33,887 bases of DNA from an uncultured virus (IMG/VR IMGVR_UViG_3300023198_000928) (IMGVR_UViG_3300023198_000928); one strand, 5' to 3'. Counted from the first letter of the stretch, positions 4,120-32,455 are shown. Translations and numbers: made by a program. The notes: a model not told the origin generated them from the sequence alone.

Positions 4120-4127
4120 TATATTTG
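4120..4127 (+). promoter_or_regulatory. Bacteroidota sigma70-type -7 element for tRNA block 1
   Basis: TATATTTG matches TANNTTTG, 30 nt upstream of leader ORF 1. Confidence 0.6.
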
Positions 4128-4157
4128 TGTAACGAATTTACGAATTATAATTTAACT

Positions 4158-4244
4158 ATGAACAATATACAACTGCATATCGAGCGCCAGGAACCGTTAC
4201 AAAGTAATGGAAGGATCTCTGTATGTGGAGTCGATGGTTTATAG
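4158..4244 (+). CDS. Attenuator leader peptide 1 (MNNIQLHIERQEPLQSNGRISVCGVDGL)
   Basis: Codons 5-15 (caa ctg cat atc gag cgc cag gaa ccg tta caa) match the downstream Pro, Glu, Gln, His, Leu, Leu and Arg tRNAs. GAAGGATC 4210-4217 is complementary to the terminator 5' arm. Confidence 0.8.
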   Translation: MNNIQLHIERQEPLQSNGRISVCGVDGL

Positions 4245-4271
4245 CCCTTGGTGTAACATAATTAAAAAGAT

Positions 4272-4302
4272 GATCCTTCTAAGAAATTAGAGGGATTTTT
4301 TT
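4272..4302 (+). terminator. Intrinsic terminator (attenuator 1) just before tRNA-Pro
   Basis: GATCCTTCTAA-gaaa-TTAGAGGGATT stem followed by a T-run. Confidence 0.85.
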
Positions 4303-4312
4303 ATATCAAATT

Positions 4313-4386
4313 CTAGGTGTAGCGTAGTCAGGTAACGCGCGTGCTTTGGGTGTACGAGAACGGGAGTTCGAATCTCTCCATCTAGA
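4313..4386 (+). tRNA. trnP: tRNA-Pro(TGG)
   Basis: Cloverleaf; acceptor ctaggtg/catctag, anticodon loop tttgggt, T-loop ttcgaat. Confidence 0.93.
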
Positions 4387-4441
4387 CAAAAGGTTTTAGC
4401 CCTTCCCCGTGTGAGTAATTGACACAAAATGAAGAGCATCT

Positions 4442-4514
4442 GGCGCGGTCTTCTAGTGGATCAGGAATCCGGGTTTTCATCCCGGCAACCGGAGTTCGAT
4501 TCTCCGTCGCGCTA
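4442..4514 (+). tRNA. trnE: tRNA-Glu(TTC)
   Basis: Acceptor ggcgcgg/tcgcgct; anticodon arm ccggg-ttttcat-cccgg. Confidence 0.93.
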
Positions 4515-4605
4515 CAAAATGGTCACTATAGTAGCTAATAGTCGGTAAAAATCCGATTAATAGCTACCAGAGTAGCTAACTATTCGTGATTCGCGAATTG
4601 GAAAT

Positions 4606-4677
4606 TGGGTCGAAGTGTTATGGATGTGCACATCGGTTTTTGGTACCGAAAGACAGGGTTCGATGCCCGCGGCCCAC
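4606..4677 (+). tRNA. trnQ: tRNA-Gln(TTG)
   Basis: Acceptor tgggtcg/cggccca; arm tcggt-ttttggt-accga; bulged T-stem. Confidence 0.85.
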
Positions 4678-4679
4678 CT

Positions 4680-4753
4680 GTGTATGAAGCTAAAGTGGCC
4701 GAAGCGTCGGTTTGTGGTACCGAAGATAGGGGGTTCGAGTCTCCTCATACACC
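4680..4753 (+). tRNA. trnH: tRNA-His(GTG), no encoded G-1
   Basis: Acceptor gtgtatg/catacac with C73; arm tcggt-ttgtggt-accga. Confidence 0.9.
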
Positions 4754-4758
4754 CAAAA

Positions 4759-4843
4759 GCAGTAGGGAGGAATTATACTAGTTGATATAGCCTCGCCGCC
4801 CCGTGGAGGGAGGAAAAGCTCAGACTTATCACTGAGATACTGC
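4759..4843 (+). ncRNA. Putative structured multibranch RNA between tRNAs
   Basis: Closing stem gcagta/tactgc encloses hairpins gagg..cctc and ctcag-acttatca-ctgag. Confidence 0.4.
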
Positions 4844-4848
4844 AAAAT

Positions 4849-4933
4849 GCTCCTATGGCGGAACTAGGTAGACGCTCTAGATTTAGGATCTAGTATCAGT
4901 AATGGTGTGAGAGTTCGATTCTCTCTGGGAGTA
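4849..4933 (+). tRNA. trnL: tRNA-Leu(TAG)
   Basis: Acceptor gctccta/tgggagt; arm ctaga-tttagga-tctag; long variable arm. Confidence 0.93.
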
Positions 4934-4938
4934 CAATA

Positions 4939-5037
4939 GTCAGGATAGACGTGCAGTGATGTATGGATTACGCCTAGTATAGATTAATTATCTATTGATG
5001 AGGGGATAGAAATGAGAGGTTCCCTTTAAGTCCTGGC
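4939..5037 (+). ncRNA. Putative structured RNA between tRNAs
   Basis: Closing stem gtcagga/tcctggc; internal atagat-taatt-atctat and agggga..ttccct helices. Confidence 0.35.
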
Positions 5038-5048
5038 GACGTTATAAT

Positions 5049-5134
5049 GCCTTCGTGATGGAACTGGTAGACATAGCGGACTTAAAATCCGTGGGTCAGG
5101 AATGGCCGTGAGGGTTCGACTCCCTTCTTAGGTA
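5049..5134 (+). tRNA. trnL: tRNA-Leu(TAA)
   Basis: Arm gcgga-cttaaaa-tccgt; long variable arm; two acceptor mismatches. Confidence 0.9.
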
Positions 5135-5142
5135 CTAAATAC

Positions 5143-5216
5143 GGCTTGCTAGCTTAACTGAACAAAGCACTTGATTACGGCTCATGAGATTCGGGGTTTG
5201 AATCCCTGGCAGGCTT
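5143..5216 (+). tRNA. trnR: tRNA-Arg(ACG)
   Basis: Acceptor ggcttgc/gcaggct; loop ttacggc; T-loop tttgaat. Confidence 0.88.
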
Positions 5217-5270
5217 CTGATTTTCACTATTTTAATAGTATTATATTAATATAATTTATACCTTTAAGAT

Positions 5271-5537: not shown

Positions 5538-5545
5538 TATATTTG
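5538..5545 (+). promoter_or_regulatory. Bacteroidota sigma70-type -7 element for tRNA block 2
   Basis: TATATTTG(TGTA), same context as 4120 and also 30 nt upstream of its leader ORF. Confidence 0.6.
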
Positions 5546-5575
5546 TGTAGGTTTAATAAAACATTTTAGCATTCA

Positions 5576-5656
5576 GTGAATTTAAGTATAAATATAGCGA
5601 CAAGAATTATGGTCGGGACGGATAAGTCTCCGAAAGGATCTTGTTGGTATGGATAA
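5576..5656 (+). CDS. Attenuator leader peptide 2 (GTG start; MNLSINIATRIMVGTDKSPKGSCWYG)
   Basis: Codons 7-17 (ata gcg aca aga att atg gtc ggg acg gat aag) match the block 2 tRNAs. AAGGATCTT 5634-5642 is complementary to AAGATCCTT 5680-5688. Confidence 0.8.
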   Translation: MNLSINIATRIMVGTDKSPKGSCWYG

Positions 5657-5681
5657 GTAAATTCACATACAATATAATAAA

Positions 5682-5714
5682 GATCCTTCTAACTTCCATT
5701 TAGAGGGATTTTTT
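5682..5714 (+). terminator. Intrinsic terminator (attenuator 2) just before tRNA-Ala
   Basis: GATCCTTCTAA-cttccat-TTAGAGGGATT plus T-run; stem arms identical to attenuator 1. Confidence 0.85.
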
Positions 5715-5725
5715 AGTTAACAACC

Positions 5726-5798
5726 GGCCCTGAAGCTCTACTGGCTGAGCATCTCCCTTGCACGGAGAAGGTTGCGAGTTCGAGTCTCGTCAGGCCCA
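5726..5798 (+). tRNA. trnA: tRNA-Ala(TGC), C3:C70 in place of G3:U70
   Basis: Arm tctcc-cttgcac-ggaga; acceptor ggccctg/caggccc. Confidence 0.85.
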
Positions 5799-5884
5799 CA
5801 ATAATGATTAGAAGATTATGTATTTAAGTAAGAAGAAATATAAACAGTAATTAGCCCTTTGAGAAATGAGGGTGTTATTTATAT

Positions 5885-5956
5885 GCCTTCGTAGCTTAAT
5901 GGTAAAGCAACTGACTTTTAATCAGTAGACCAAGAGATCGGTACTCTTCGAAGGTA
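5885..5956 (+). tRNA. trnK: tRNA-Lys(TTT)
   Basis: Acceptor gccttcg/cgaaggt; arm actga-cttttaa-tcagt; atypical T-loop atcggta. Confidence 0.88.
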
Positions 5957-5982
5957 CAAAGAAAGATTGGGCTAAATAAAAT

Positions 5983-6054
5983 TGGGTTATAGCTCAGGGG
6001 TAGAGCAGCTGTCCGATACACAGCAGGTCATCAGTTCAAATCTGATTAATCCTA
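5983..6054 (+). tRNA. trnI: tRNA-Ile(GAT)
   Basis: Arm gctgt-ccgatac-acagc (C33); T-loop ttcaaat. Confidence 0.88.
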
Positions 6055-6065
6055 CAAAAGAAAAC

Positions 6066-6138
6066 GCAGGTATAGTGTTAGCGTGTAGCATGCGAGCCTT
6101 CCAAGCTCAGGGGGTCAGTTCGAATCTGGTTACCTGCA
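6066..6138 (+). tRNA. trnG: tRNA-Gly(TCC)
   Basis: Acceptor gcaggta/tacctgc; loop cttccaa. Confidence 0.9.
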
Positions 6139-6149
6139 CAAAATTAAAT

Positions 6150-6221
6150 AGTGACGTAGCTCAGTGGTAGAGCAGTCGGTTCATATCCTTCAGGTCACGG
6201 GTTCAAATCCCGTCGTCGCAA
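6150..6221 (+). tRNA. trnM: tRNA(CAT), probably elongator Met
   Basis: Loop ttcatat; weak anticodon stem gtcgg/ccttc; canonical D and T arms. Confidence 0.75.
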
Positions 6222-6233
6222 CAAAGAAAAAAT

Positions 6234-6306
6234 CGCGAGGTAGAGCAGGGGCCAGCTCGTTGGGCTCATAACCCAGAGGTCGGCGGTTCGAATCCGTCCC
6301 TCGCTA
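6234..6306 (+). tRNA. trnfM: Initiator tRNA-fMet(CAT)
   Basis: C1:U72 mismatch; three consecutive G-C pairs in ttggg-ctcataa-cccag. Confidence 0.92.
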
Positions 6307-6364
6307 CTACAAATAAAGATAAGTTCAGGGCTTTCCCCCAGCGCGGGTTTTAGATTGAACAAAC

Positions 6365-6440
6365 GGTGGCGCAGCATACATGGGAGCATGGCGTCTGCCT
6401 GTCACGCAGAAGATTGCGGGTTCGAGTCCCGTCGTTACCG
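6365..6440 (+). tRNA. trnD: tRNA-Asp(GTC)
   Basis: Acceptor ggtggcg/cgttacc with G73; arm tctgc-ctgtcac-gcaga; atypical D-arm. Confidence 0.88.
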
Positions 6441-6454
6441 CAAAGTTTAGGAGA

Positions 6455-6537
6455 TATCCTAGACAACTATTAGAGTAAGGAGACCACTGTCCTACAGGTA
6501 GTGATCGACGCAGCAGGACCTTAACTCTCTTAGGATA
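6455..6537 (+). ncRNA. Putative long-hairpin RNA between tRNAs
   Basis: Nested stems tatccta/taggata and agagtaagg/ccttaactct. Confidence 0.35.
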
Positions 6538-6538
6538 A

Positions 6539-6611
6539 TCCGGAATAGCTCAATCGGTAGAGCAGCTGTTTTGTAATCAGCAGGTCGTCAGTTCGAGCCT
6601 GACTTTCGGAT
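6539..6611 (+). tRNA. trnT: tRNA-Thr(TGT)
   Basis: Acceptor tccggaa/tttcgga; loop tttgtaa. Confidence 0.9.
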
Positions 6612-6712
6612 CAAATAGTACTTAGAACACCTCTCGTGAAGTCTTGAAGTGTCCCAATCTAAGTCTTTTACGAGGAGATAGGTTACACGTGGCCGGGAAA
6701 GTCTCCTCACTT

Positions 6713-6786
6713 GCAGTGGTAGCTCAGGGGTAAAGAGCATCTGTTTTACATGCAGAGGGTCGATGGTTCGAATCCATCTCACTGTA
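6713..6786 (+). tRNA. trnV: tRNA-Val(TAC)
   Basis: Acceptor gcagtgg/tcactgt; arm tctgt-tttacat-gcaga. Confidence 0.92.
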
Positions 6787-6797
6787 CAAATTTACCA

Positions 6798-6871
6798 GGG
6801 ACTGTAGCTCAACTGAACAGAGCAGCATGCTTCTATCTTGCCGGTTGGGGGTTTGAATCCCTTCAGTCTCT
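6798..6871 (+). tRNA. trnR: tRNA-Arg(TCT)
   Basis: Acceptor gggactg/cagtctc; loop cttctat; T-loop tttgaat. Confidence 0.88.
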
Positions 6872-6877
6872 CTAAAT

Positions 6878-6951
6878 CGTCCTATAGCTCAGTAGGTCAG
6901 AGCAGGTCACTCATAATGATCAGGCCCTCGGTTCGATCCCGAGTAGGACAA
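6878..6951 (+). tRNA. trnI: tRNA(CAT), probably Ile2 (lysidine type, reads ATA)
   Basis: Arm ggtca-ctcataa-tgatc with A73; third CAT tRNA in the block. Confidence 0.75.
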
Positions 6952-7028
6952 CTAAATAGTAGCTATCATCATTACTTTGTCATATAAATTTTGTATTATA
7001 TAGAAGTAACATTCAATTTAAATTATAT

Positions 7029-7376
7029 ATGATTTACTACAAGAAAACCAATCGACCAGATCCCCGCCACACTCGCACATCATTTCAATCATTCAAAACC
7101 GGAGGTAACATTCTTTTAGGAGTAAAGAAGATCCCTAGCAGTATGAAAGAAACTATTAGTCCTTACATTATTAAAAGTAGTAAGTATCACGGTAAAAATG
7201 GAATAATTACTGGGCTAAGAAAACCATTAAATATGGACTCTGATGCAAGGGGACTAGGATTCGGTGCGGACAAGGATGGATTTTTTGTACATACTCATAG
7301 AGCTCGTAGTAAATCTTATCCTACTCCGTTCAAAATTCCTAAGGATAAAATTAAATTTATAAAATCCACTGGATAA
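7029..7376 (+). CDS. Basic hypothetical protein with a GG motif
   Basis: 115 aa; FKTGGNILL motif; GTATTATA upstream. Confidence 0.65.
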   Translation: MIYYKKTNRPDPRHTRTSFQSFKTGGNILLGVKKIPSSMKETISPYIIKSSKYHGKNGIITGLRKPLNMDSDARGLGFGADKDGFFVHTHRARSKSYPTPFKIPKDKIKFIKSTG

Positions 7377-7424
7377 TTCAAATATTTTTGTATCTTTATT
7401 ACTTAATATTAAAGACCGATATAC

Positions 7425-7577
7425 ATGGATTTTATTTTTGGATTACTAATAGGAGCTGTACTTGGAGGATTAATTGGAATCTTAGTGTACAGAAACAACG
7501 AAGAAAAAGCGAGTAAAATAGCAGATAAAGTTGACGATGTCGTAGAGGATATTAAAGATATAGGAAAAAAAGAATAA
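7425..7577 (+). CDS. Small membrane-anchored protein (YtxH-like pattern)
   Basis: MDFIFGLLIGAVLGGLIGILVYRNNEEKASKIADKVDDVVEDIKDIGKKE; stop lies 2 nt before leader 3. Confidence 0.7.
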   Translation: MDFIFGLLIGAVLGGLIGILVYRNNEEKASKIADKVDDVVEDIKDIGKKE

Positions 7578-7579
7578 TC

Positions 7580-7654
7580 ATGAAAGCAATTTATTGTACA
7601 TATAATAGTTTTAATTTTTGGTCGAATCGTTCGAGCAAGACTTCTATTGTATGA
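7580..7654 (+). CDS. Attenuator leader peptide 3 (MKAIYCTYNSFNFWSNRSSKTSIV)
   Basis: Codons 5-16 (tat tgt aca tat aat agt ttt aat ttt tgg tcg aat) match the Tyr, Cys, Asn, Ser, Ser, Phe and Trp tRNAs. GCAAGACTTC 7635-7644 is complementary to GAAGTCTTGC 7692-7701. Confidence 0.82.
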   Translation: MKAIYCTYNSFNFWSNRSSKTSIV

Positions 7655-7691
7655 TGTAAATTGAAAAACATATACTAATACTTAACCTAAG

Positions 7692-7720
7692 GAAGTCTTG
7701 CAGAAATGTAGGACTTTTTT
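7692..7720 (+). terminator. Intrinsic terminator (attenuator 3) before tRNA-Tyr
   Basis: GAAGTCTTGCA-gaaa-TGTAGGACTTT followed by a T-run. Confidence 0.85.
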
Positions 7721-7737
7721 ATGGTCTATAATAATCT

Positions 7738-7804
7738 GGATTAGCGGTGGTAGGGGCCGAGTCTGTAAAACTCTAGCCGGAAGGTTCGAATCCTTTCTAG
7801 TCCA
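7738..7804 (+). tRNA. trnY: tRNA-Tyr(GTA), atypical (reduced D-arm, short variable region)
   Basis: Acceptor ggattag/ctagtcc; arm gagt-ctgtaaa-actc; T-arm gaagg-ttcgaat-ccttt. Confidence 0.7.
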
Positions 7805-7862
7805 CAAAGTAAACGTATAAGTATACAAAACTCGAAAAAAGTAAACGTATGGCTGTACAAAC

Positions 7863-7951
7863 GGAAGGTGAAGCAGTGGCATTGGAGCTGCGACTAGTCT
7901 TGAAAACTAGGGGTCATTAGGTTGGCTGGGGATCGGGTCCTCCTCCTTCTT
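7863..7951 (+). tRNA. trnS: tRNA-Ser(TGA)
   Basis: Arm ctagt-cttgaaa-actag; long variable arm; atypical T-loop atcgggt. Confidence 0.8.
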
Positions 7952-8022
7952 CGTAGACAATGAGTGTTCAATAGTTGGTAGCTATAGCAGGACTGGTAAT
8001 CCATGGCTCATTGTACTTGTGT

Positions 8023-8107
8023 AGAGAGTAAACTGGACAGGCGCGCCAGATGCGATTGCTAATCGTTATGAGGGTAATACCTTTCGGTTCGAGACCGATT
8101 CTCTCTT
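8023..8107 (+). tRNA. trnS: tRNA-Ser(GCT)
   Basis: Acceptor agagag/ctctct; arm gcga-ttgctaa-tcgt; variable arm present. Confidence 0.82.
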
Positions 8108-8226
8108 CTAAATGAAGTAATAAGTTTTGAGCCGAATAAATTAAGTAATCAGCTCATGAAAAGTGAGAATGCAGCTCAAAATGATATGATAATGAGCCGT
8201 ATATATTAGTTTAGTGAGCAGTAAAT

Positions 8227-8298
8227 GTCTTGGTAGCTCAGTGGTAGAGCGTTTGCCTGTTAAGCAAGTTGTCGTGAGTTCGAATCTCACCCTTGACT
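8227..8298 (+). tRNA. trnN: tRNA-Asn(GTT)
   Basis: Arm tttgc-ctgttaa-gcaag; canonical D and T arms. Confidence 0.9.
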
Positions 8299-8385
8299 CA
8301 ATAAATGTTAAAATGTAGTAGATTATTATAATTATGTGATATATTTTTAGTAATATTGTATATATAATTATTAAAATACTATATT

Positions 8386-8715
8386 ATGGATGACAAGAAA
8401 ACAGAAAAAGTATTAGTAGGAGTTAGAATAGGAACTAAAGTAGAAGAAGGAGATCCTAAAATGTCATATAGACAAAGTATTAAGGCCTTTGGAAGTTTAG
8501 GTAAAGAAGTTAAGATTAGTCCTAAAGCACATGTGGTGTTAAATAAAGCTGGTTACAATGTAAAATATTATGTTGACAGTGTTAGTGTGACTATTGGAAT
8601 TGGAAATGATCATTCAGCTAGATTAGTTATGAGTGTAGATGCGTGGAATGCGCTTAATGATGGAGAGAAAATTAATGTGACGACTGTTAAAGAATTTGAA
8701 AGAGATTTTAGATAA
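8386..8715 (+). CDS. Hypothetical protein
   Basis: 109-aa ORF inside the tRNA array. Confidence 0.7.
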   Translation: MDDKKTEKVLVGVRIGTKVEEGDPKMSYRQSIKAFGSLGKEVKISPKAHVVLNKAGYNVKYYVDSVSVTIGIGNDHSARLVMSVDAWNALNDGEKINVTTVKEFERDFR

Positions 8716-8727
8716 TAAATAAAGTAT

Positions 8728-8800
8728 GTGTCTGTGTCCGAGAGGCTAAGGTAGATGGTTGCAACCCTGAAGATCGCTGGTTCGAGTCCAGTCAGACATT
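8728..8800 (+). tRNA. trnC: tRNA-Cys(GCA), weak anticodon stem
   Basis: Acceptor gtgtctg/cagacat with U73; loop ttgcaac. Confidence 0.8.
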
Positions 8801-8886
8801 CAAATAGACATCCTTATTATAGAAAATGGGGATAAATGAAAATAAGAGTAATCGCTAATTAAGAAAAGAGGCGAAAACTTAAATAA

Positions 8887-8959
8887 GCTTCAGAGACCCT
8901 CTGGGAAGGGTAGCAGCCTCCAAAACTGCTAGTTGTGGGTTCGAATCCTACCTGTCGCG
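8887..8959 (+). tRNA. trnW: tRNA-Trp(CCA)
   Basis: Loop ctccaaa; G73; T-arm gtggg-ttcgaat-cctac. Confidence 0.85.
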
Positions 8960-9107
8960 CAACTATATGTAAATGCGTATAGCGAAAACGGTTCTATTGG
9001 GCTGCGGACGATTACTATACGTAATAGCATATAATGGGGTGTATGATATATCATGCTAAGAGGACCATATTAAAGCTCTTTGAATGAGATACTGTACATA
9101 ATTAATT

Positions 9108-9180
9108 GGGTTAGTAGCAAAGGCGGTCAATGCAGCGGACTGAAAATCCGTAGATGGTGGTTCGATTCCACTCTATCCCA
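9108..9180 (+). tRNA. trnF: tRNA-Phe(GAA)
   Basis: Acceptor gggttag/ctatccc; arm gcgga-ctgaaaa-tccgt. Confidence 0.92.
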
Positions 9181-9212
9181 CTAAAGTAGATTATTTTCAG
9201 TATCTTTATATT

Positions 9213-9353
9213 ATGAAAGAAGTTAAAAGATGTTCAAAATGTGGTAAGAAACTATACGACAGTTTTACTAACCAGAATCACGACGAGAAATCATGTAAAG
9301 GAAAAAATACTACTCCTCCACCAGCAATAACTTATTCACCTGACTGCGCTTAA
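9213..9353 (+). CDS. Small putative zinc-binding protein
   Basis: MKEVKRCSKCGKKLY...H....C, 46 aa, hand-translated. Confidence 0.5.
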   Translation: MKEVKRCSKCGKKLYDSFTNQNHDEKSCKGKNTTPPPAITYSPDCA

Positions 9354-25452: not shown

Positions 25453-26595
25453 ATGAAAGCAACAATAGTAATAGACCTTGGATACGGAGACAGTGGAAAA
25501 GGTATAGCAACAGATTATTTATGTGACCAAGCTAAGAACCCGGTAGTAGTAAGATTTTCGGGAGGTCAACAAGCAGGTCATACAGTAGTAAGAAATGGTA
25601 AGAAGCATACATTTTCAAACTTCGGATCAGGGACCTTTCAAGATGTACCCACATATTTTACAGAGCATACAACAGTTTATCCTAGTGCCATTGCAAGAGA
25701 GCAAGATAGATTAGCTGATTTAGGTGTTGAACCATTATTGGTAATTCATCCTTTAGCTAGATTAACAACTCCATATGATGTAATGCATAATAGAACGTGT
25801 ACTGATAACAAAGCACACGGCACTTGTGGAATGGGTGTTGGTAAAACTCACCATAGACATAATACTTCTGGATACAGACTCTATGCAGTGGACTTATTAT
25901 GTCCAGAGATATTACGGCAGAAGATGGAAAGAATTCGTGATGAATATTATGAAGCAGAATTTGGTGGAGATTTAGAATTAGATCTAATGTTGGAATTAGA
26001 AGAAGAGGAAAGAATATTTATGCAAGCTGTAAAAGGGCTTAAATGGATTATCAAAGGATATGAATTCTTAGAATGTTTTCACACTTTAGTATTCGAAGGT
26101 TCTCAAGGCGTTATGTTAGATAAAGATCACGGAGTATTTCCTCATGTGACATATTCTAATACTACATCTAAAGTTCCAATGGAGATCTGTGATAAATTAA
26201 ATATCTTAGATAGACAAGTATACCACGTTACTAGAGCATACTCTACAAAACACGGTTCCGGGCCTTATAATTCTTCAGGTAGACTAATTACTCTACAGAA
26301 TAATGATAAAGAGCATAATGTGACAAATAAATTTCAAGGAGAATTTTTAACCTCTCCCATGGATTATGAGATATTAAATCAAGCAATTCGCGTAGATGAA
26401 AGTTACACTAAAGGATACATGACTAATTTAATTGTTACATGTAATGACCAAATTGTTTTTCCTGAAAATGATTTTGATATTAACCAAGTAAATAAAAACT
26501 ATTATGAGGTTATGTATTCATATTCAGCTGAAACAATGGAATTAGTTGTAGCTAAAAAAGCAGTATTTAAACAGCGAGTTAACGCAGAAATTTAA
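25453..26595 (+). CDS. purA: Adenylosuccinate synthetase family protein (PurA-like, divergent)
   Basis: DLGYGDSGKG, RFSGGQQAGHT, HGTCGMGVG, FEGSQGVMLD, PHVTYSNT and TRAYSTKHGSGP motifs. Confidence 0.85.
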   Translation: MKATIVIDLGYGDSGKGIATDYLCDQAKNPVVVRFSGGQQAGHTVVRNGKKHTFSNFGSGTFQDVPTYFTEHTTVYPSAIAREQDRLADLGVEPLLVIHPLARLTTPYDVMHNRTCTDNKAHGTCGMGVGKTHHRHNTSGYRLYAVDLLCPEILRQKMERIRDEYYEAEFGGDLELDLMLELEEEERIFMQAVKGLKWIIKGYEFLECFHTLVFEGSQGVMLDKDHGVFPHVTYSNTTSKVPMEICDKLNILDRQVYHVTRAYSTKHGSGPYNSSGRLITLQNNDKEHNVTNKFQGEFLTSPMDYEILNQAIRVDESYTKGYMTNLIVTCNDQIVFPENDFDINQVNKNYYEVMYSYSAETMELVVAKKAVFKQRVNAEI

Positions 26596-32366: not shown

Positions 32367-32439
32367 GGCTTGATAGCTCAGTTGGTAGAGCAAAGGATTA
32401 AACGTCCGAGTGTCCTAGGTTCGATTCCTAGTCGAGCCA
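32367..32439 (+). tRNA. Orphan tRNA-Phe-like gene with aberrant anticodon arm (apparent AAA anticodon)
   Basis: Acceptor ggcttga/tcgagcc and canonical D/T arms; anticodon arm aagga-ttaaacg-tccga. Confidence 0.7.
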
Positions 32440-32455
32440 CTAAATAATATAAGTT

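What the first reader, a model, noticed from the sequence alone, without database searches (positions are those of the whole stretch)
7425..7720. Attenuator 3: unrelated sequence, same logic, coupled to a small membrane gene
The terminator sequence differs from attenuators 1 and 2 but keeps a perfect 10-bp antiterminator (7635-7644 with 7692-7701). A protector is also present (ataatag/ctattgt, ttttg/caaga, tcgaa/ttcga). Conserved pairing without conserved sequence argues for function. The leader ATG is 2 nt after the stop of a 50-aa membrane ORF, which could load ribosomes by re-initiation. The Cys, Trp and Phe tRNAs lie beyond an intervening CDS yet are still sampled by the leader.
Basis: partly seen in the sequence, partly recalled or inferred. 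Interest (0 to 1): 0.78.

Follow-up and report, generated by a model that had tools for sequence, protein, structure and literature searches.

The report
Leader-peptide attenuator gating phage tRNA genes
An uncultured phage places a tiny translated "test" gene, written in the codons of the seven tRNAs that follow it, in front of a switchable transcription stop, so it probably makes those tRNAs mainly when ribosomes read these codons slowly.

Summary
A 24-codon ORF (7580-7654) starts 2 nt after a 50-aa membrane ORF. It is followed by a hairpin plus T-run (7689-7720) that ends about 14 nt before the first tRNA. The 10-bp antiterminator (7635-7644 with 7692-7701) is perfect and appeared in 0 of 2000 shuffles. 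A protector hairpin sequesters it.

Fourteen of the 23 leader codons after the start are read by the seven downstream tRNAs (Tyr, Ser-UGA, Ser-GCU, Asn, Cys, Trp, Phe). All seven species are sampled in codons 5-15. In a ribosome-masking model the antiterminator forms only while the A site is at codons 1-15.

The three leaders of the window each match their own tRNA cluster (3 of 20000 permutations). A related phage contig, L241, has a homologous leader that also begins MKAI. It is rewritten as SLYSYLYLSL in front of Leu/Leu/Tyr/Ser tRNAs.

My best reading is a trp-type, multivalent ribosome-mediated attenuator controlling tRNA genes. There are no expression data. Five literature searches found no paper on this. 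Earlier notes of this scan report the same logic on other DNA (103 notes).

The parts
7383..7390 (+). Putative promoter -7 box (TATTTTTG, Bacteroidota-type TAnnTTTG), 35 nt before the 50-aa ORF. Inferred only.
   Evidence: One search lists the motif here. Attenuators 1 and 2 carry TATATTTGTGTA 30-31 nt before their leader starts. The motif is not enriched in the window as a whole (34 found against 45.7 expected).
7425..7577 (+). 50-aa ORF with a hydrophobic N-terminal segment and a charged tail. Its stop codon lies 2 nt before the leader ATG.
   Evidence: ORF list. PHROG phrog_3879, E = 5.8e-10. No Pfam match. No hit at E <= 0.01 in the large protein collection.
7580..7654 (+). Leader ORF MKAIYCTYNSFNFWSNRSSKTSIV, stop TGA at 7652-7654.
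   Evidence: 14 of 23 codons after the start are read by the downstream tRNAs. All 7 of 7 tRNA species are covered.
7592..7624 (+). Sensor codons 5-15 (Y C T Y N S F N F W S). 10 of 11 are cognate to the cluster, and all 7 tRNA species are represented.
   Evidence: One search gives the counts. One search shows the antiterminator forming only with the A site at codons 1-15.
7587..7663 (+). Protector (anti-antiterminator) hairpin that sequesters region 2.
   Evidence: Minimum-energy and centroid fold. With no ribosome, 0 antiterminator pairs form.
7635..7644 (+). Region 2, the 5' strand of the antiterminator. It lies inside leader codons 19-22.
7692..7701 (+). Region 3, shared between the antiterminator and the 5' arm of the terminator.
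7689..7722 (+). Intrinsic terminator: stem, GAAA loop, and T-run 7715-7720.
7734..7804 (+). Probable atypical tRNA-Tyr (GUA) with a short variable arm. It begins about 14 nt after the T-run.
   Evidence: Rfam 25.1 bits, below the cut-off of 29. ARAGORN finds it only at ps80.
7863..7952 (+). tRNA-Ser (UGA).
8023..8108 (+). tRNA-Ser (GCU).
   Evidence: ARAGORN at ps95. Not called at default settings or by Rfam.
8227..8299 (+). tRNA-Asn (GUU).
8386..8715 (+). 109-aa CDS embedded in the tRNA cluster. It belongs to a conserved phage protein family of unknown function.
8728..8801 (+). tRNA with GCA in an irregular anticodon loop; probably Cys.
   Evidence: Rfam 36.2 bits. ARAGORN reports 'Ala|Cys' with a 6-nt loop.
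8887..8960 (+). tRNA-Trp (CCA).
9108..9181 (+). tRNA-Phe (GAA).

Best explanation
This is a ribosome-mediated (trp-type) transcription attenuator, multivalent, and what it controls is a block of phage tRNA genes rather than biosynthetic enzymes.

Inferred pathway. Transcription probably starts upstream of the 50-aa ORF. Ribosomes reach the leader ATG at 7580 by re-initiation or internal initiation. The outcome then depends on where the ribosome is.

- No ribosome on the leader: the protector hairpin (7587-7663) holds region 2, the terminator forms, and RNA polymerase stops at 7715-7720.
- Ribosome runs quickly to codons 16-25 or the stop: it covers region 2 and the terminator again forms.
- Ribosome lingers at codons 5-15 (Tyr, Cys, Asn, Ser-AGU, Phe, Trp, Ser-UCG): the protector is melted and region 2 is free. 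It pairs with region 3 before the terminator's 3' arm is made, and polymerase reads on into Tyr, Ser, Ser, Asn, the 109-aa CDS, Cys, Trp and Phe.

The product relieves the stall, so the circuit would act as a supply homeostat for exactly these tRNAs.

Shown here: the ORF, the three alternative pairings, their statistics, the codon-to-tRNA match, and the same design in related phages. Inferred: translation of the leader, stalling, readthrough, and the promoter.
For: Structure.
- 10-bp perfect antiterminator: 0 of 2000 shuffles.
- Terminator z = -6.07. Whole leader z = -5.91.
- 7630-7703 folds into the antiterminator at -17.9 kcal/mol, z = -4.06.

Ribosome-mask model.
- No ribosome: 0 antiterminator pairs.
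- A site at codons 1-15: 11 pairs.
- A site at codons 16-25: 0 pairs in the 7633-7646 / 7690-7703 register.

Codon match.
- 14 of 23 codons are cognate, against 5.06 expected; binomial 6.5e-5.
- All 7 of 7 tRNA species are covered. The same coverage occurs in 292 of 200000 random draws at CDS codon usage, 6 of 6107 CDS sliding windows, and 10 of 266 small ORFs.
- Composition control by dinucleotide shuffles: 59 of 20000 reach 14 or more cognate codons, 223 of 20000 reach 7/7 coverage, and 13 of 20000 reach both. The other two frames give 3 and 10 cognate codons.

System level.
- The three clusters partition all 61 sense codons.
- Each leader covers all species of its own cluster only (7/7, 9/9, 7/7).
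- The diagonal sum is 40 of 75 codons, reached by 3 of 20000 permutations.
- The Arg codon is CGC in leader 1 (tRNA-Arg ACG is in cluster 1) and AGA in leader 2 (tRNA-Arg UCU is in cluster 2).

No room for a promoter: about 14 nt separate the T-run from the first tRNA.

Relatives.
- L241 has four leader/terminator units. The diagonal sum is 49 of 90 codons, reached by 0 of 20000 permutations.
- Its unit d begins ATGAAAGCAAT like this leader, folds the same way, and has the same sensor boundary. It is written S L Y S Y L Y L S L in front of Leu, Leu, Tyr and Ser tRNAs.
- L216, L013 and L020 show the same logic.
Against: - There is no transcript or ribosome evidence. No sequencing run could be listed.
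- Only two distinct homologous leaders (L241, L245) and one analogue (L216) were found, so base-pair covariation could not be scored. The attempt was misregistered.
- The leader has no promoter box of its own and no Shine-Dalgarno motif. Only 2 of 40 ORFs in the window have a Shine-Dalgarno-like core, so this is the norm here. Its translation still rests on untested re-initiation.
- The Tyr tRNA is sub-threshold and the Cys tRNA has an irregular anticodon loop.
- Once the 3' arm exists the terminator is the more stable fold, so readthrough must be kinetic.
- The mask model uses a fixed footprint (-15/+12) and minimum-energy folds. It predicts antitermination for a ribosome anywhere in codons 1-15, including at initiation.
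- 8 of the 23 leader codons belong to cluster 2 and 1 to cluster 1. One of them (ACA, Thr) sits inside the sensor window.
- Against the null of 266 arbitrary small ORFs, 7/7 coverage is only 10 of 266.
- The TAnnTTTG motif is not enriched in the window.
- The simple terminator scan did not list this hairpin.
Confidence: 0.75

Rival explanations
1. General translation gauge. The leader is translated and the switch works as described, but it reports overall ribosome speed or availability (host shut-off, stress) rather than the supply of these particular tRNAs. The amino-acid bias would then be secondary.
For: In the mask model a ribosome anywhere in codons 1-15 opens the antiterminator, including at the non-cognate codons 1-4 and 7. 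9 of 23 leader codons are not cognate to the cluster.
Against: The codon sets differ between the three leaders of one phage and follow their own clusters (3 of 20000 permutations). The same holds for the four units of L241 (0 of 20000). The homologous leader in L241 was rewritten to Leu/Tyr/Ser together with its tRNA set. A general gauge needs no such matching.
Confidence: 0.1
2. Plain terminator. The hairpin simply ends the upstream unit (7029-7577). The tRNAs are made by constitutive leak-through or from an unrecognised promoter, and the small ORF and the complementarity are accidents of AT-rich sequence.
For: The hairpin follows two protein ORFs. Small ORFs rich in F/N/Y/S are common in this 33% GC DNA: 10 of 266 small ORFs cover all seven species, and frame +2 of the same stretch has 10 cognate codons. 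There are no expression data.
Against: The 10-bp complement to the terminator arm appeared in 0 of 2000 shuffles. Both codon criteria together were met in 13 of 20000 composition-preserving shuffles. The same three-part layout stands before all three clusters of the window and before tRNA clusters in L013, L020, L216 and L241. Only about 14 nt lie between the T-run and the first tRNA, and no promoter-like site was found on the + strand between 7034 and 8162.
Confidence: 0.07
3. Translation-independent RNA switch. The alternative hairpins respond to a ligand, a protein or an uncharged tRNA (T-box-like), or they serve as processing or stability signals for the tRNA precursor. The ORF is not read.
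For: Alternative pairings alone do not prove that a ribosome is involved. The leader has no Shine-Dalgarno motif and no promoter box of its own.
Against: No T-box, riboswitch or leader family of Rfam matched at gathering scores in the window or at E <= 1 in 7380-9250. This reading does not explain why the frame is open from an ATG exactly across the protector, why its stop lies just past region 2, or why its codons track the tRNAs. The peptide is not conserved between the homologous leaders of the window and L241, but the reading frame and the logic are.
Confidence: 0.05

Closest known systems
Multivalent leader-peptide attenuators of enterobacterial amino-acid operons (thrL sensing Thr and Ile; ilvL of ilvGMEDA sensing Ile, Leu and Val). 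Recalled from textbook knowledge; not fetched here.
   Same: A short leader ORF carries regulatory codons for several amino acids. Protector, antiterminator and terminator pairings exclude one another. The stop codon is placed so that an unstalled ribosome blocks the antiterminator. There is an intrinsic terminator with a U-tract.
   Different: The regulated genes are tRNAs, not biosynthetic enzymes. Six amino acids and seven tRNA species are sampled, mostly once or twice each, rather than in runs of one codon. The element is phage-borne. There is no sequence similarity, and no Rfam leader family matched. The leader follows a 50-aa ORF instead of a promoter of its own.
pheST (pheM leader) attenuator of E. 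coli. Recalled; not fetched here.
   Same: Leader-peptide attenuation is applied to a component of the translation apparatus. As I recall, the signal depends on the supply of charged tRNA-Phe.
   Different: It controls a synthetase, senses one amino acid, and is chromosomal. Here the tRNA genes themselves are controlled, which would close a direct feedback loop.
trp operon attenuator (trpL). Recalled.
   Same: The four-region logic (1:2 protector, 2:3 antiterminator, 3:4 terminator). Termination occurs both without translation and with fast translation. The terminator is more stable than the antiterminator, so the choice is kinetic.
   Different: It senses a single amino acid through tandem Trp codons and controls biosynthetic genes.
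T-box riboswitches. Recalled.
   Same: They couple the state of the tRNA pool to transcription readthrough of translation-related genes by a terminator/antiterminator choice.
   Different: T-boxes bind uncharged tRNA directly and need no ORF. No T-box match was found here, and an open frame spans the switch.
Earlier notes of this scan on other phage DNA.
   Same: Leader ORFs written in the codons of the tRNA cluster that follows, with switchable terminators, mostly in phages with Bacteroidota-type signals.
   Different: These are unpublished AI notes on other genomes. The present case adds a leader appended to a small membrane ORF. It also adds a homologous leader pair (window and L241) whose codon content differs in step with the tRNA sets.

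Membership tests
Ribosome-mediated (leader-peptide) transcription attenuator | A short ORF with start and stop codons inside the leader transcript | tested here: met
   ATG at 7580, TGA at 7652-7654, 24 codons. The start codon is unpaired in the minimum-energy fold.
Ribosome-mediated (leader-peptide) transcription attenuator | Regulatory codons cognate to what the downstream genes supply | tested here: met
   14 of 23 codons are cognate and 7 of 7 tRNA species are covered. Both criteria together are met in 13 of 20000 composition-preserving shuffles.
Ribosome-mediated (leader-peptide) transcription attenuator | An intrinsic terminator between the leader and the regulated genes | tested here: met
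   Hairpin at -19.4 kcal/mol, z = -6.07, followed by six T at 7715-7720. The first tRNA follows about 14 nt later. It was not listed by the simple scan.
Ribosome-mediated (leader-peptide) transcription attenuator | An antiterminator that shares a strand with the terminator | tested here: met
   7635-7644 pairs with 7692-7701 as 10 perfect pairs, seen in 0 of 2000 shuffles. It forms in the fold of 7630-7703.
Ribosome-mediated (leader-peptide) transcription attenuator | A protector pairing, overlapped by the ORF, that holds the antiterminator strand when no ribosome is present | tested here: met
   Hairpin 7587-7663. With no ribosome, 0 antiterminator pairs form.
Ribosome-mediated (leader-peptide) transcription attenuator | Geometry: a stall at the regulatory codons frees the antiterminator, and a ribosome at the stop codon masks it | tested here: met
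   Mask model: 11 antiterminator pairs with the A site at codons 1-15, and 0 in the 7633-7646 / 7690-7703 register at codons 16-25. The model is crude, with a fixed footprint and minimum-energy folds.
Ribosome-mediated (leader-peptide) transcription attenuator | Readthrough rises in vivo when the cognate charged tRNA is scarce; the leader is translated | not testable with these tools
   No sequencing run could be listed. The phage is uncultured.
Rfam leader families (Trp, His, Leu, Thr, Phe leaders) and T-box | A match to the family covariance model at its gathering score | tested here: not met
   All 21 matches at gathering score in the window are tRNA. At E <= 1 in 7380-9250 there is no leader or T-box family. 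The element works like these families but is not a sequence member of any of them.

The most novel reading that the evidence does not exclude
Phages of this group run a bank of codon-matched decoding sensors. Each tRNA cluster is gated by its own leader, which measures in real time how well the infected cell reads exactly those codons. The phage would then top up tRNAs that are scarce, degraded during infection, or cut by host anticodon nucleases, and stop once supply is restored. In this unit the sensor is also tied to translation of a small membrane protein. Leader codon content evolves in step with tRNA gene gain, loss and shuffling between clusters, as seen between the window and L241.
Probability: 0.35. 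Interest if true: 0.9.

Novelty: new variant of a known kind. Interest (0 to 1): 0.8.

Why it matters
How phage tRNA genes are regulated, and why phages carry them, remain open questions. A leader-peptide attenuator written in the codons of the tRNAs it controls would be direct evidence that phage tRNAs are made on demand, in response to decoding shortfall. It would give a feedback loop in which the sensed molecule is the product.

It would also extend a classic mechanism, known for amino-acid operons and a synthetase operon, to RNA genes and to viruses of hosts that largely lack Shine-Dalgarno initiation. Leaders of this kind would offer a readable record of which tRNAs belong to one transcription unit.

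The idea is easy to test with reporters. Five full-text searches (I saw listings and the starts of abstracts only) found no paper describing it.

Tried and rejected
- Close relatives of the window were not found. Megablast against the phage collection gave none. Blastn matched single tRNAs only (29 records). The 567-aa neighbour had no relative in IMG/VR or in the metagenome contigs. The 115-aa neighbour gave two loci without tRNAs. The exact terminator sequence gave 0 hits in IMG/VR.
- No whole genome is held for the window.
- Sequencing runs: none was listed and no RNA holder was listed.
- The 50-aa ORF had no hit at E <= 0.01 in the large protein collection and no Pfam family.
- The 109-aa ORF family was used as an anchor. 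Of 36 IMG/VR loci scanned, 4 had any tRNA. Of 80 metagenome loci, 3 had any tRNA, and two of those are the same contigs as L013 and L020. This protein is therefore not generally linked to tRNA clusters.
- The promoter-plus-ATGAACAAT pattern was too unspecific. Among the loci fetched from it, 1 had a tRNA cluster (L108).
- The pattern for the MKAI leader gave 13 loci. Two are real (L245, and L247 which is the L241 contig) and 11 are chance hits inside unrelated ORFs.
- The consensus fold of the window, L241 and L245 failed. I gave wrong minus-strand coordinates for L245, and MAFFT put the terminators out of register. No covariation claim is made from it.
- The Bacteroidota-type promoter motif TAnnTTTG is not enriched in the window (34 found against 45.7 expected). 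The promoter assignments are inference from position only.
- Earlier-notes look-ups by place and by sequence returned nothing.
- Own-cluster codon counts over the whole ORF are not significant for leaders 1 and 2 taken alone (binomial 0.054 and 0.31). The case for those two rests on coverage, on the best 15-codon window, and on the joint permutation test.

Full report
**Setting**

The window is AT-rich (33% GC) and phage-like. It holds a DnaD-like replication protein, tail proteins and a PurZ-like enzyme. The protein of 8386-8715 is on record on a single contig of 157,887 bases. No whole genome is held for the window.

The window carries 22 ARAGORN tRNAs, plus two seen only by Rfam and two seen only at relaxed settings. 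All but one lie in three blocks:
- 4313-5217: Pro, Glu, Gln, His, Leu-UAG, Leu-UAA, Arg-ACG.
- 5726-6952: Ala, Lys, Ile, Gly, three CAU tRNAs, Asp, Thr, Val, Arg-UCU.
- 7734-9181: Tyr, Ser-UGA, Ser-GCU, Asn, a 109-aa CDS, Cys, Trp, Phe.

Together the three blocks cover all 20 amino acids, and by wobble families every sense codon falls to exactly one block. Each block is preceded by a small ORF and a hairpin with a T-run. The finding I was given is the third of these.

**The observation**

All the stated pairings are real.
- 7635-7644 is the exact reverse complement of 7692-7701.
- The terminator is AAGTCTTGCA-GAAA-TGTAGGACTT followed by further T. The six T at 7715-7720 include the last two stem bases. 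The extended hairpin has -19.4 kcal/mol and z = -6.07.
- The minimum-energy fold of 7580-7725 is a long protector hairpin (7587-7663) plus the terminator. Energy is -42.1 kcal/mol, z = -5.91, matched by 0 of 200 shuffles.
- When the 5' part is left out and the 3' arm of the terminator is not yet present (7630-7703), the RNA folds into the antiterminator at -17.9 kcal/mol, z = -4.06.
- With the 3' arm present the terminator wins. As I recall, the same is true of the trp attenuator.
- With the terminator arm held fixed and 7580-7684 shuffled, a perfect complementary run of 10 never arose (0 of 2000). The best duplex energy was never reached either: -18.5 against -7.4 +/- 1.9.
- The 50-aa ORF ends with TAA at 7575-7577 and the leader ATG is at 7580.

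**The leader**

The ORF reads MKAIYCTYNSFNFWSNRSSKTSIV.
- Fourteen of the 23 codons after the start are read by the downstream tRNAs, against 5.06 expected from the phage's own coding usage (binomial 6.5e-5).
- Every one of the seven tRNA species is sampled.
- How rare full coverage is depends on the null: 292 of 200000 draws at coding usage, 6 of 6107 windows inside real genes, but 10 of 266 arbitrary small ORFs of this AT-rich DNA.
- A control that keeps the dinucleotide content of the leader itself gives 59 of 20000 for the count, 223 of 20000 for the coverage, and 13 of 20000 for both. The other two frames give 3 and 10 cognate codons.
- The stronger argument is the system. Each of the three leaders covers all tRNA species of its own block and of no other (7/7, 9/9, 7/7).
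- Redistributing the pooled leader codons among the three leaders reaches the observed diagonal (40 of 75) in 3 of 20000 trials.
- The Arg codons fit the isoacceptors. Leader 1 uses CGC before tRNA-Arg ACG, and leader 2 uses AGA before tRNA-Arg UCU.

**Geometry**

I masked the RNA from 15 nt before to 12 nt after the first A-site base, codon by codon. I folded the transcript up to the terminator loop at each position.
- Without a ribosome the protector forms and no antiterminator pair is made.
- With the A site at codons 1-15, eleven antiterminator pairs form.
- At codons 16-25, including the stop, none form in that register.
- Codons 5-15 are Y C T Y N S F N F W S. Ten of the eleven are cognate, and together they include all seven tRNA species.

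This is the layout expected of a working attenuator. The model is crude, however, with a fixed footprint and minimum-energy folds only. It does not separate an initiating ribosome from a stalled one.

**Relatives**

No close relative of the phage was found. Three routes gave more distant ones.

1. Through the family of the 109-aa protein.
   - L013 has the leader MIKRFQHNDQFQRRHPIILDR in front of Gln, His, Phe and Arg-UCU tRNAs.
   - L020 has MNNLSLHLQPQRTPLSREASGYCV in front of Pro, Gln, His, Arg-ACG and Leu-UAG tRNAs.
   - Both have a protector and a terminator.
   - L216 is a 1536-base contig. After the protein homologue it has a TATATTTG box and the leader MKTFASLYFSSCWYLLSRDYSGMSCNIS.
   - By my count, 16 of that leader's 27 residues are F, S, Y, C, W or N.
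   - L216 also has a protector, an antiterminator (CUCGGGC with GCCCGAG) and a terminator.
   - These are followed by a Phe-type tRNA, tRNA-Tyr, and the start of a tRNA-Ser homologous to the one in the window.
2. A 24-nt pattern from that tRNA-Ser found L241. It has 22 tRNAs in four blocks, each behind a leader and terminator:
   - MRMTSLYTFCWFSSSRHRWK before Trp, Phe, Cys.
   - MFTIRIIAMVGGTEKQSPGIPIV before Lys, Val, Arg-ACG, Met, Gly, Glu, Met, Ile, Ala.
   - MITNNHTTNQPNPQDCGRARYMDTDDKG before Pro, Asp, Asn, Thr, Gln, His.
   - MKAISLYSYLYLSLPTSRNSVAV before Leu, Leu, Tyr, Ser-UGA, and a Ser-GCU that I read by eye only.
   - The diagonal sum is 49 of 90 codons, reached by 0 of 20000 permutations.
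3. The fourth L241 leader is homologous to the one studied here.
   - Both begin ATGAAAGCAAT, and the stretch around region 2 aligns (CGAGCAAGA against CGAGCAGGA).
   - Both fold into a protector plus terminator, and the modelled sensor boundary is the same.
   - The terminator arms differ in sequence.
   - The sensor codons also differ. L241 has four Leu codons and no Cys, Phe or Trp codon. The window has no Leu codon but has Cys, Phe (twice), Trp and Asn (three times).
   - This matches where the Leu tRNAs and the Cys/Trp/Phe tRNAs sit in each phage.
   - L245 is a near-identical copy of L241 with one change.

I take this co-variation of leader content with tRNA content as the best available substitute for base-pair covariation. 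Base-pair covariation could not be scored with so few sequences; one search failed.

**The Cys, Trp and Phe tRNAs**

- They lie beyond the CDS 8386-8715.
- No terminator-like hairpin lies between the Asn tRNA and the Cys tRNA.
- No exact TAnnTTTG box lies on the + strand between 7441 and 14388.
- Only weak sigma-70-like sites (9 of 12 matches) occur at 8163, 8696 and 8793.
- In L241 the Trp/Phe/Cys tRNAs have a leader of their own. Here they have none, and leader 3 carries their codons. This fits one transcription unit from about 7400 to at least 9181, but it does not prove it.

**Host and initiation**

- Shine-Dalgarno-like cores precede 2 of 40 ORFs.
- The leaders of the relatives, and leaders 1 and 2 of the window, follow TAnnTTTG boxes.
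- The tRNA-Phe is most like those of crAss-like phages.

I infer a Bacteroidota-type host. This is inference, and the box is not enriched in the window.

Leader 3 alone has no such box. It is appended to the 50-aa ORF, which has TATTTTTG 35 nt upstream. The 50-aa ORF matches phrog_3879 (E = 5.8e-10), so it is probably a real gene. Coupling by re-initiation is plausible from the TAA-TC-ATG arrangement and nothing more.

**Comparison with what is known**

The element works like the multivalent leader-peptide attenuators (thr, ilv) and like the pheST attenuator. These are recalled, not fetched. It meets every sequence-level criterion of that class.

It is not a member of any Rfam leader family or of the T-box family. 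What is new is the target (tRNA genes), the breadth of the sensor (seven tRNA species, mostly one or two codons each), the phage setting, and the tie to a small ORF.

Five full-text searches returned no paper on such control. I saw listings and the starts of abstracts only.

Earlier notes of this scan describe the same logic on other DNA (103 notes in at least 98 genomes). They are unpublished and mostly unchecked, and I did not use them as evidence.

**Verdict**

My confidence that this is a working ribosome-mediated attenuator of the tRNA block is about 0.75. The rest is split between a general translation gauge, a plain terminator with a chance ORF, and a translation-independent switch.

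Noticed in passing
window 4120-4300 and 5538-5716: Attenuators 1 and 2 share the exact 12-mer TATATTTGTGTA 30-31 nt before their leader starts, and they have similar terminators (GATCCTTCTAA...TTAGAGGGAT). In the mask model the Asp and Lys codons of leader 2 (codons 16, 17 and 20) fall outside the productive window. The stop of leader 1 lies so far past its region 2 that a ribosome at the stop no longer masks it.
   Followed up: partly
window 25453-26595: Adenylosuccinate-synthetase-like gene that matches the PHROG family annotated '2-aminooxy adenylosuccinate synthetase', which I take to be PurZ-like (E = 1.6e-54). It also matches Pfam PF00709. This hints that the phage may replace adenine in its DNA by 2-aminoadenine. 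The neighbouring ORFs gave no informative PHROG match.
   Followed up: partly
window 32367-32440: A lone tRNA called Phe with anticodon AAA, and C at position 37 by my reading (Rfam 49.9 bits). It lies far from the three clusters, directly after an ORF, and has no leader or terminator.
   Followed up: no
window 5854-5873: A terminator-like hairpin followed by a T-rich tail, inside cluster 2 between tRNA-Ala and tRNA-Lys.
   Followed up: no
window 7953-8022, 8109-8226, 8961-9107: Long spacers between tRNAs of cluster 3. The first contains an 8-bp stem (ACAATGAG / CTCATTGT, by eye). No Rfam family matched except a sub-threshold microRNA hit that I take as spurious.
   Followed up: no
window 7622-7633: Both TCG codons of the leader lie in the inner hairpin TCGAA/TTCGA. 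TCG is the rarest TCN codon of the phage, 11 of 266 TCN codons.
   Followed up: partly
L108 4940-5400 and 5990-6125: L108 is an unrelated IMG/VR phage locus picked up by chance. Its Phe-Ile-Gln tRNA block follows a TATCTTTG box, a 31-codon ORF containing the run F-I-Q, and a terminator whose 5' arm can pair with the ORF's 3' end. Its tRNA-Lys follows a TATATTTG box directly, with no leader or terminator, so not every phage tRNA is gated.
   Followed up: partly
L216 1037-1113: The attenuator of L216 gives a weak sub-threshold match to the Rfam Thr_leader model (22.7 bits against a gathering score of 55, E = 0.17).
   Followed up: no
L020 (- strand) 2256-2120, L216 948-963, L241 96-111: In several relatives the leader ATG lies only 4-5 nt after the TTTG of the promoter box. 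These leaders may be translated from leaderless or nearly leaderless transcripts.
   Followed up: no
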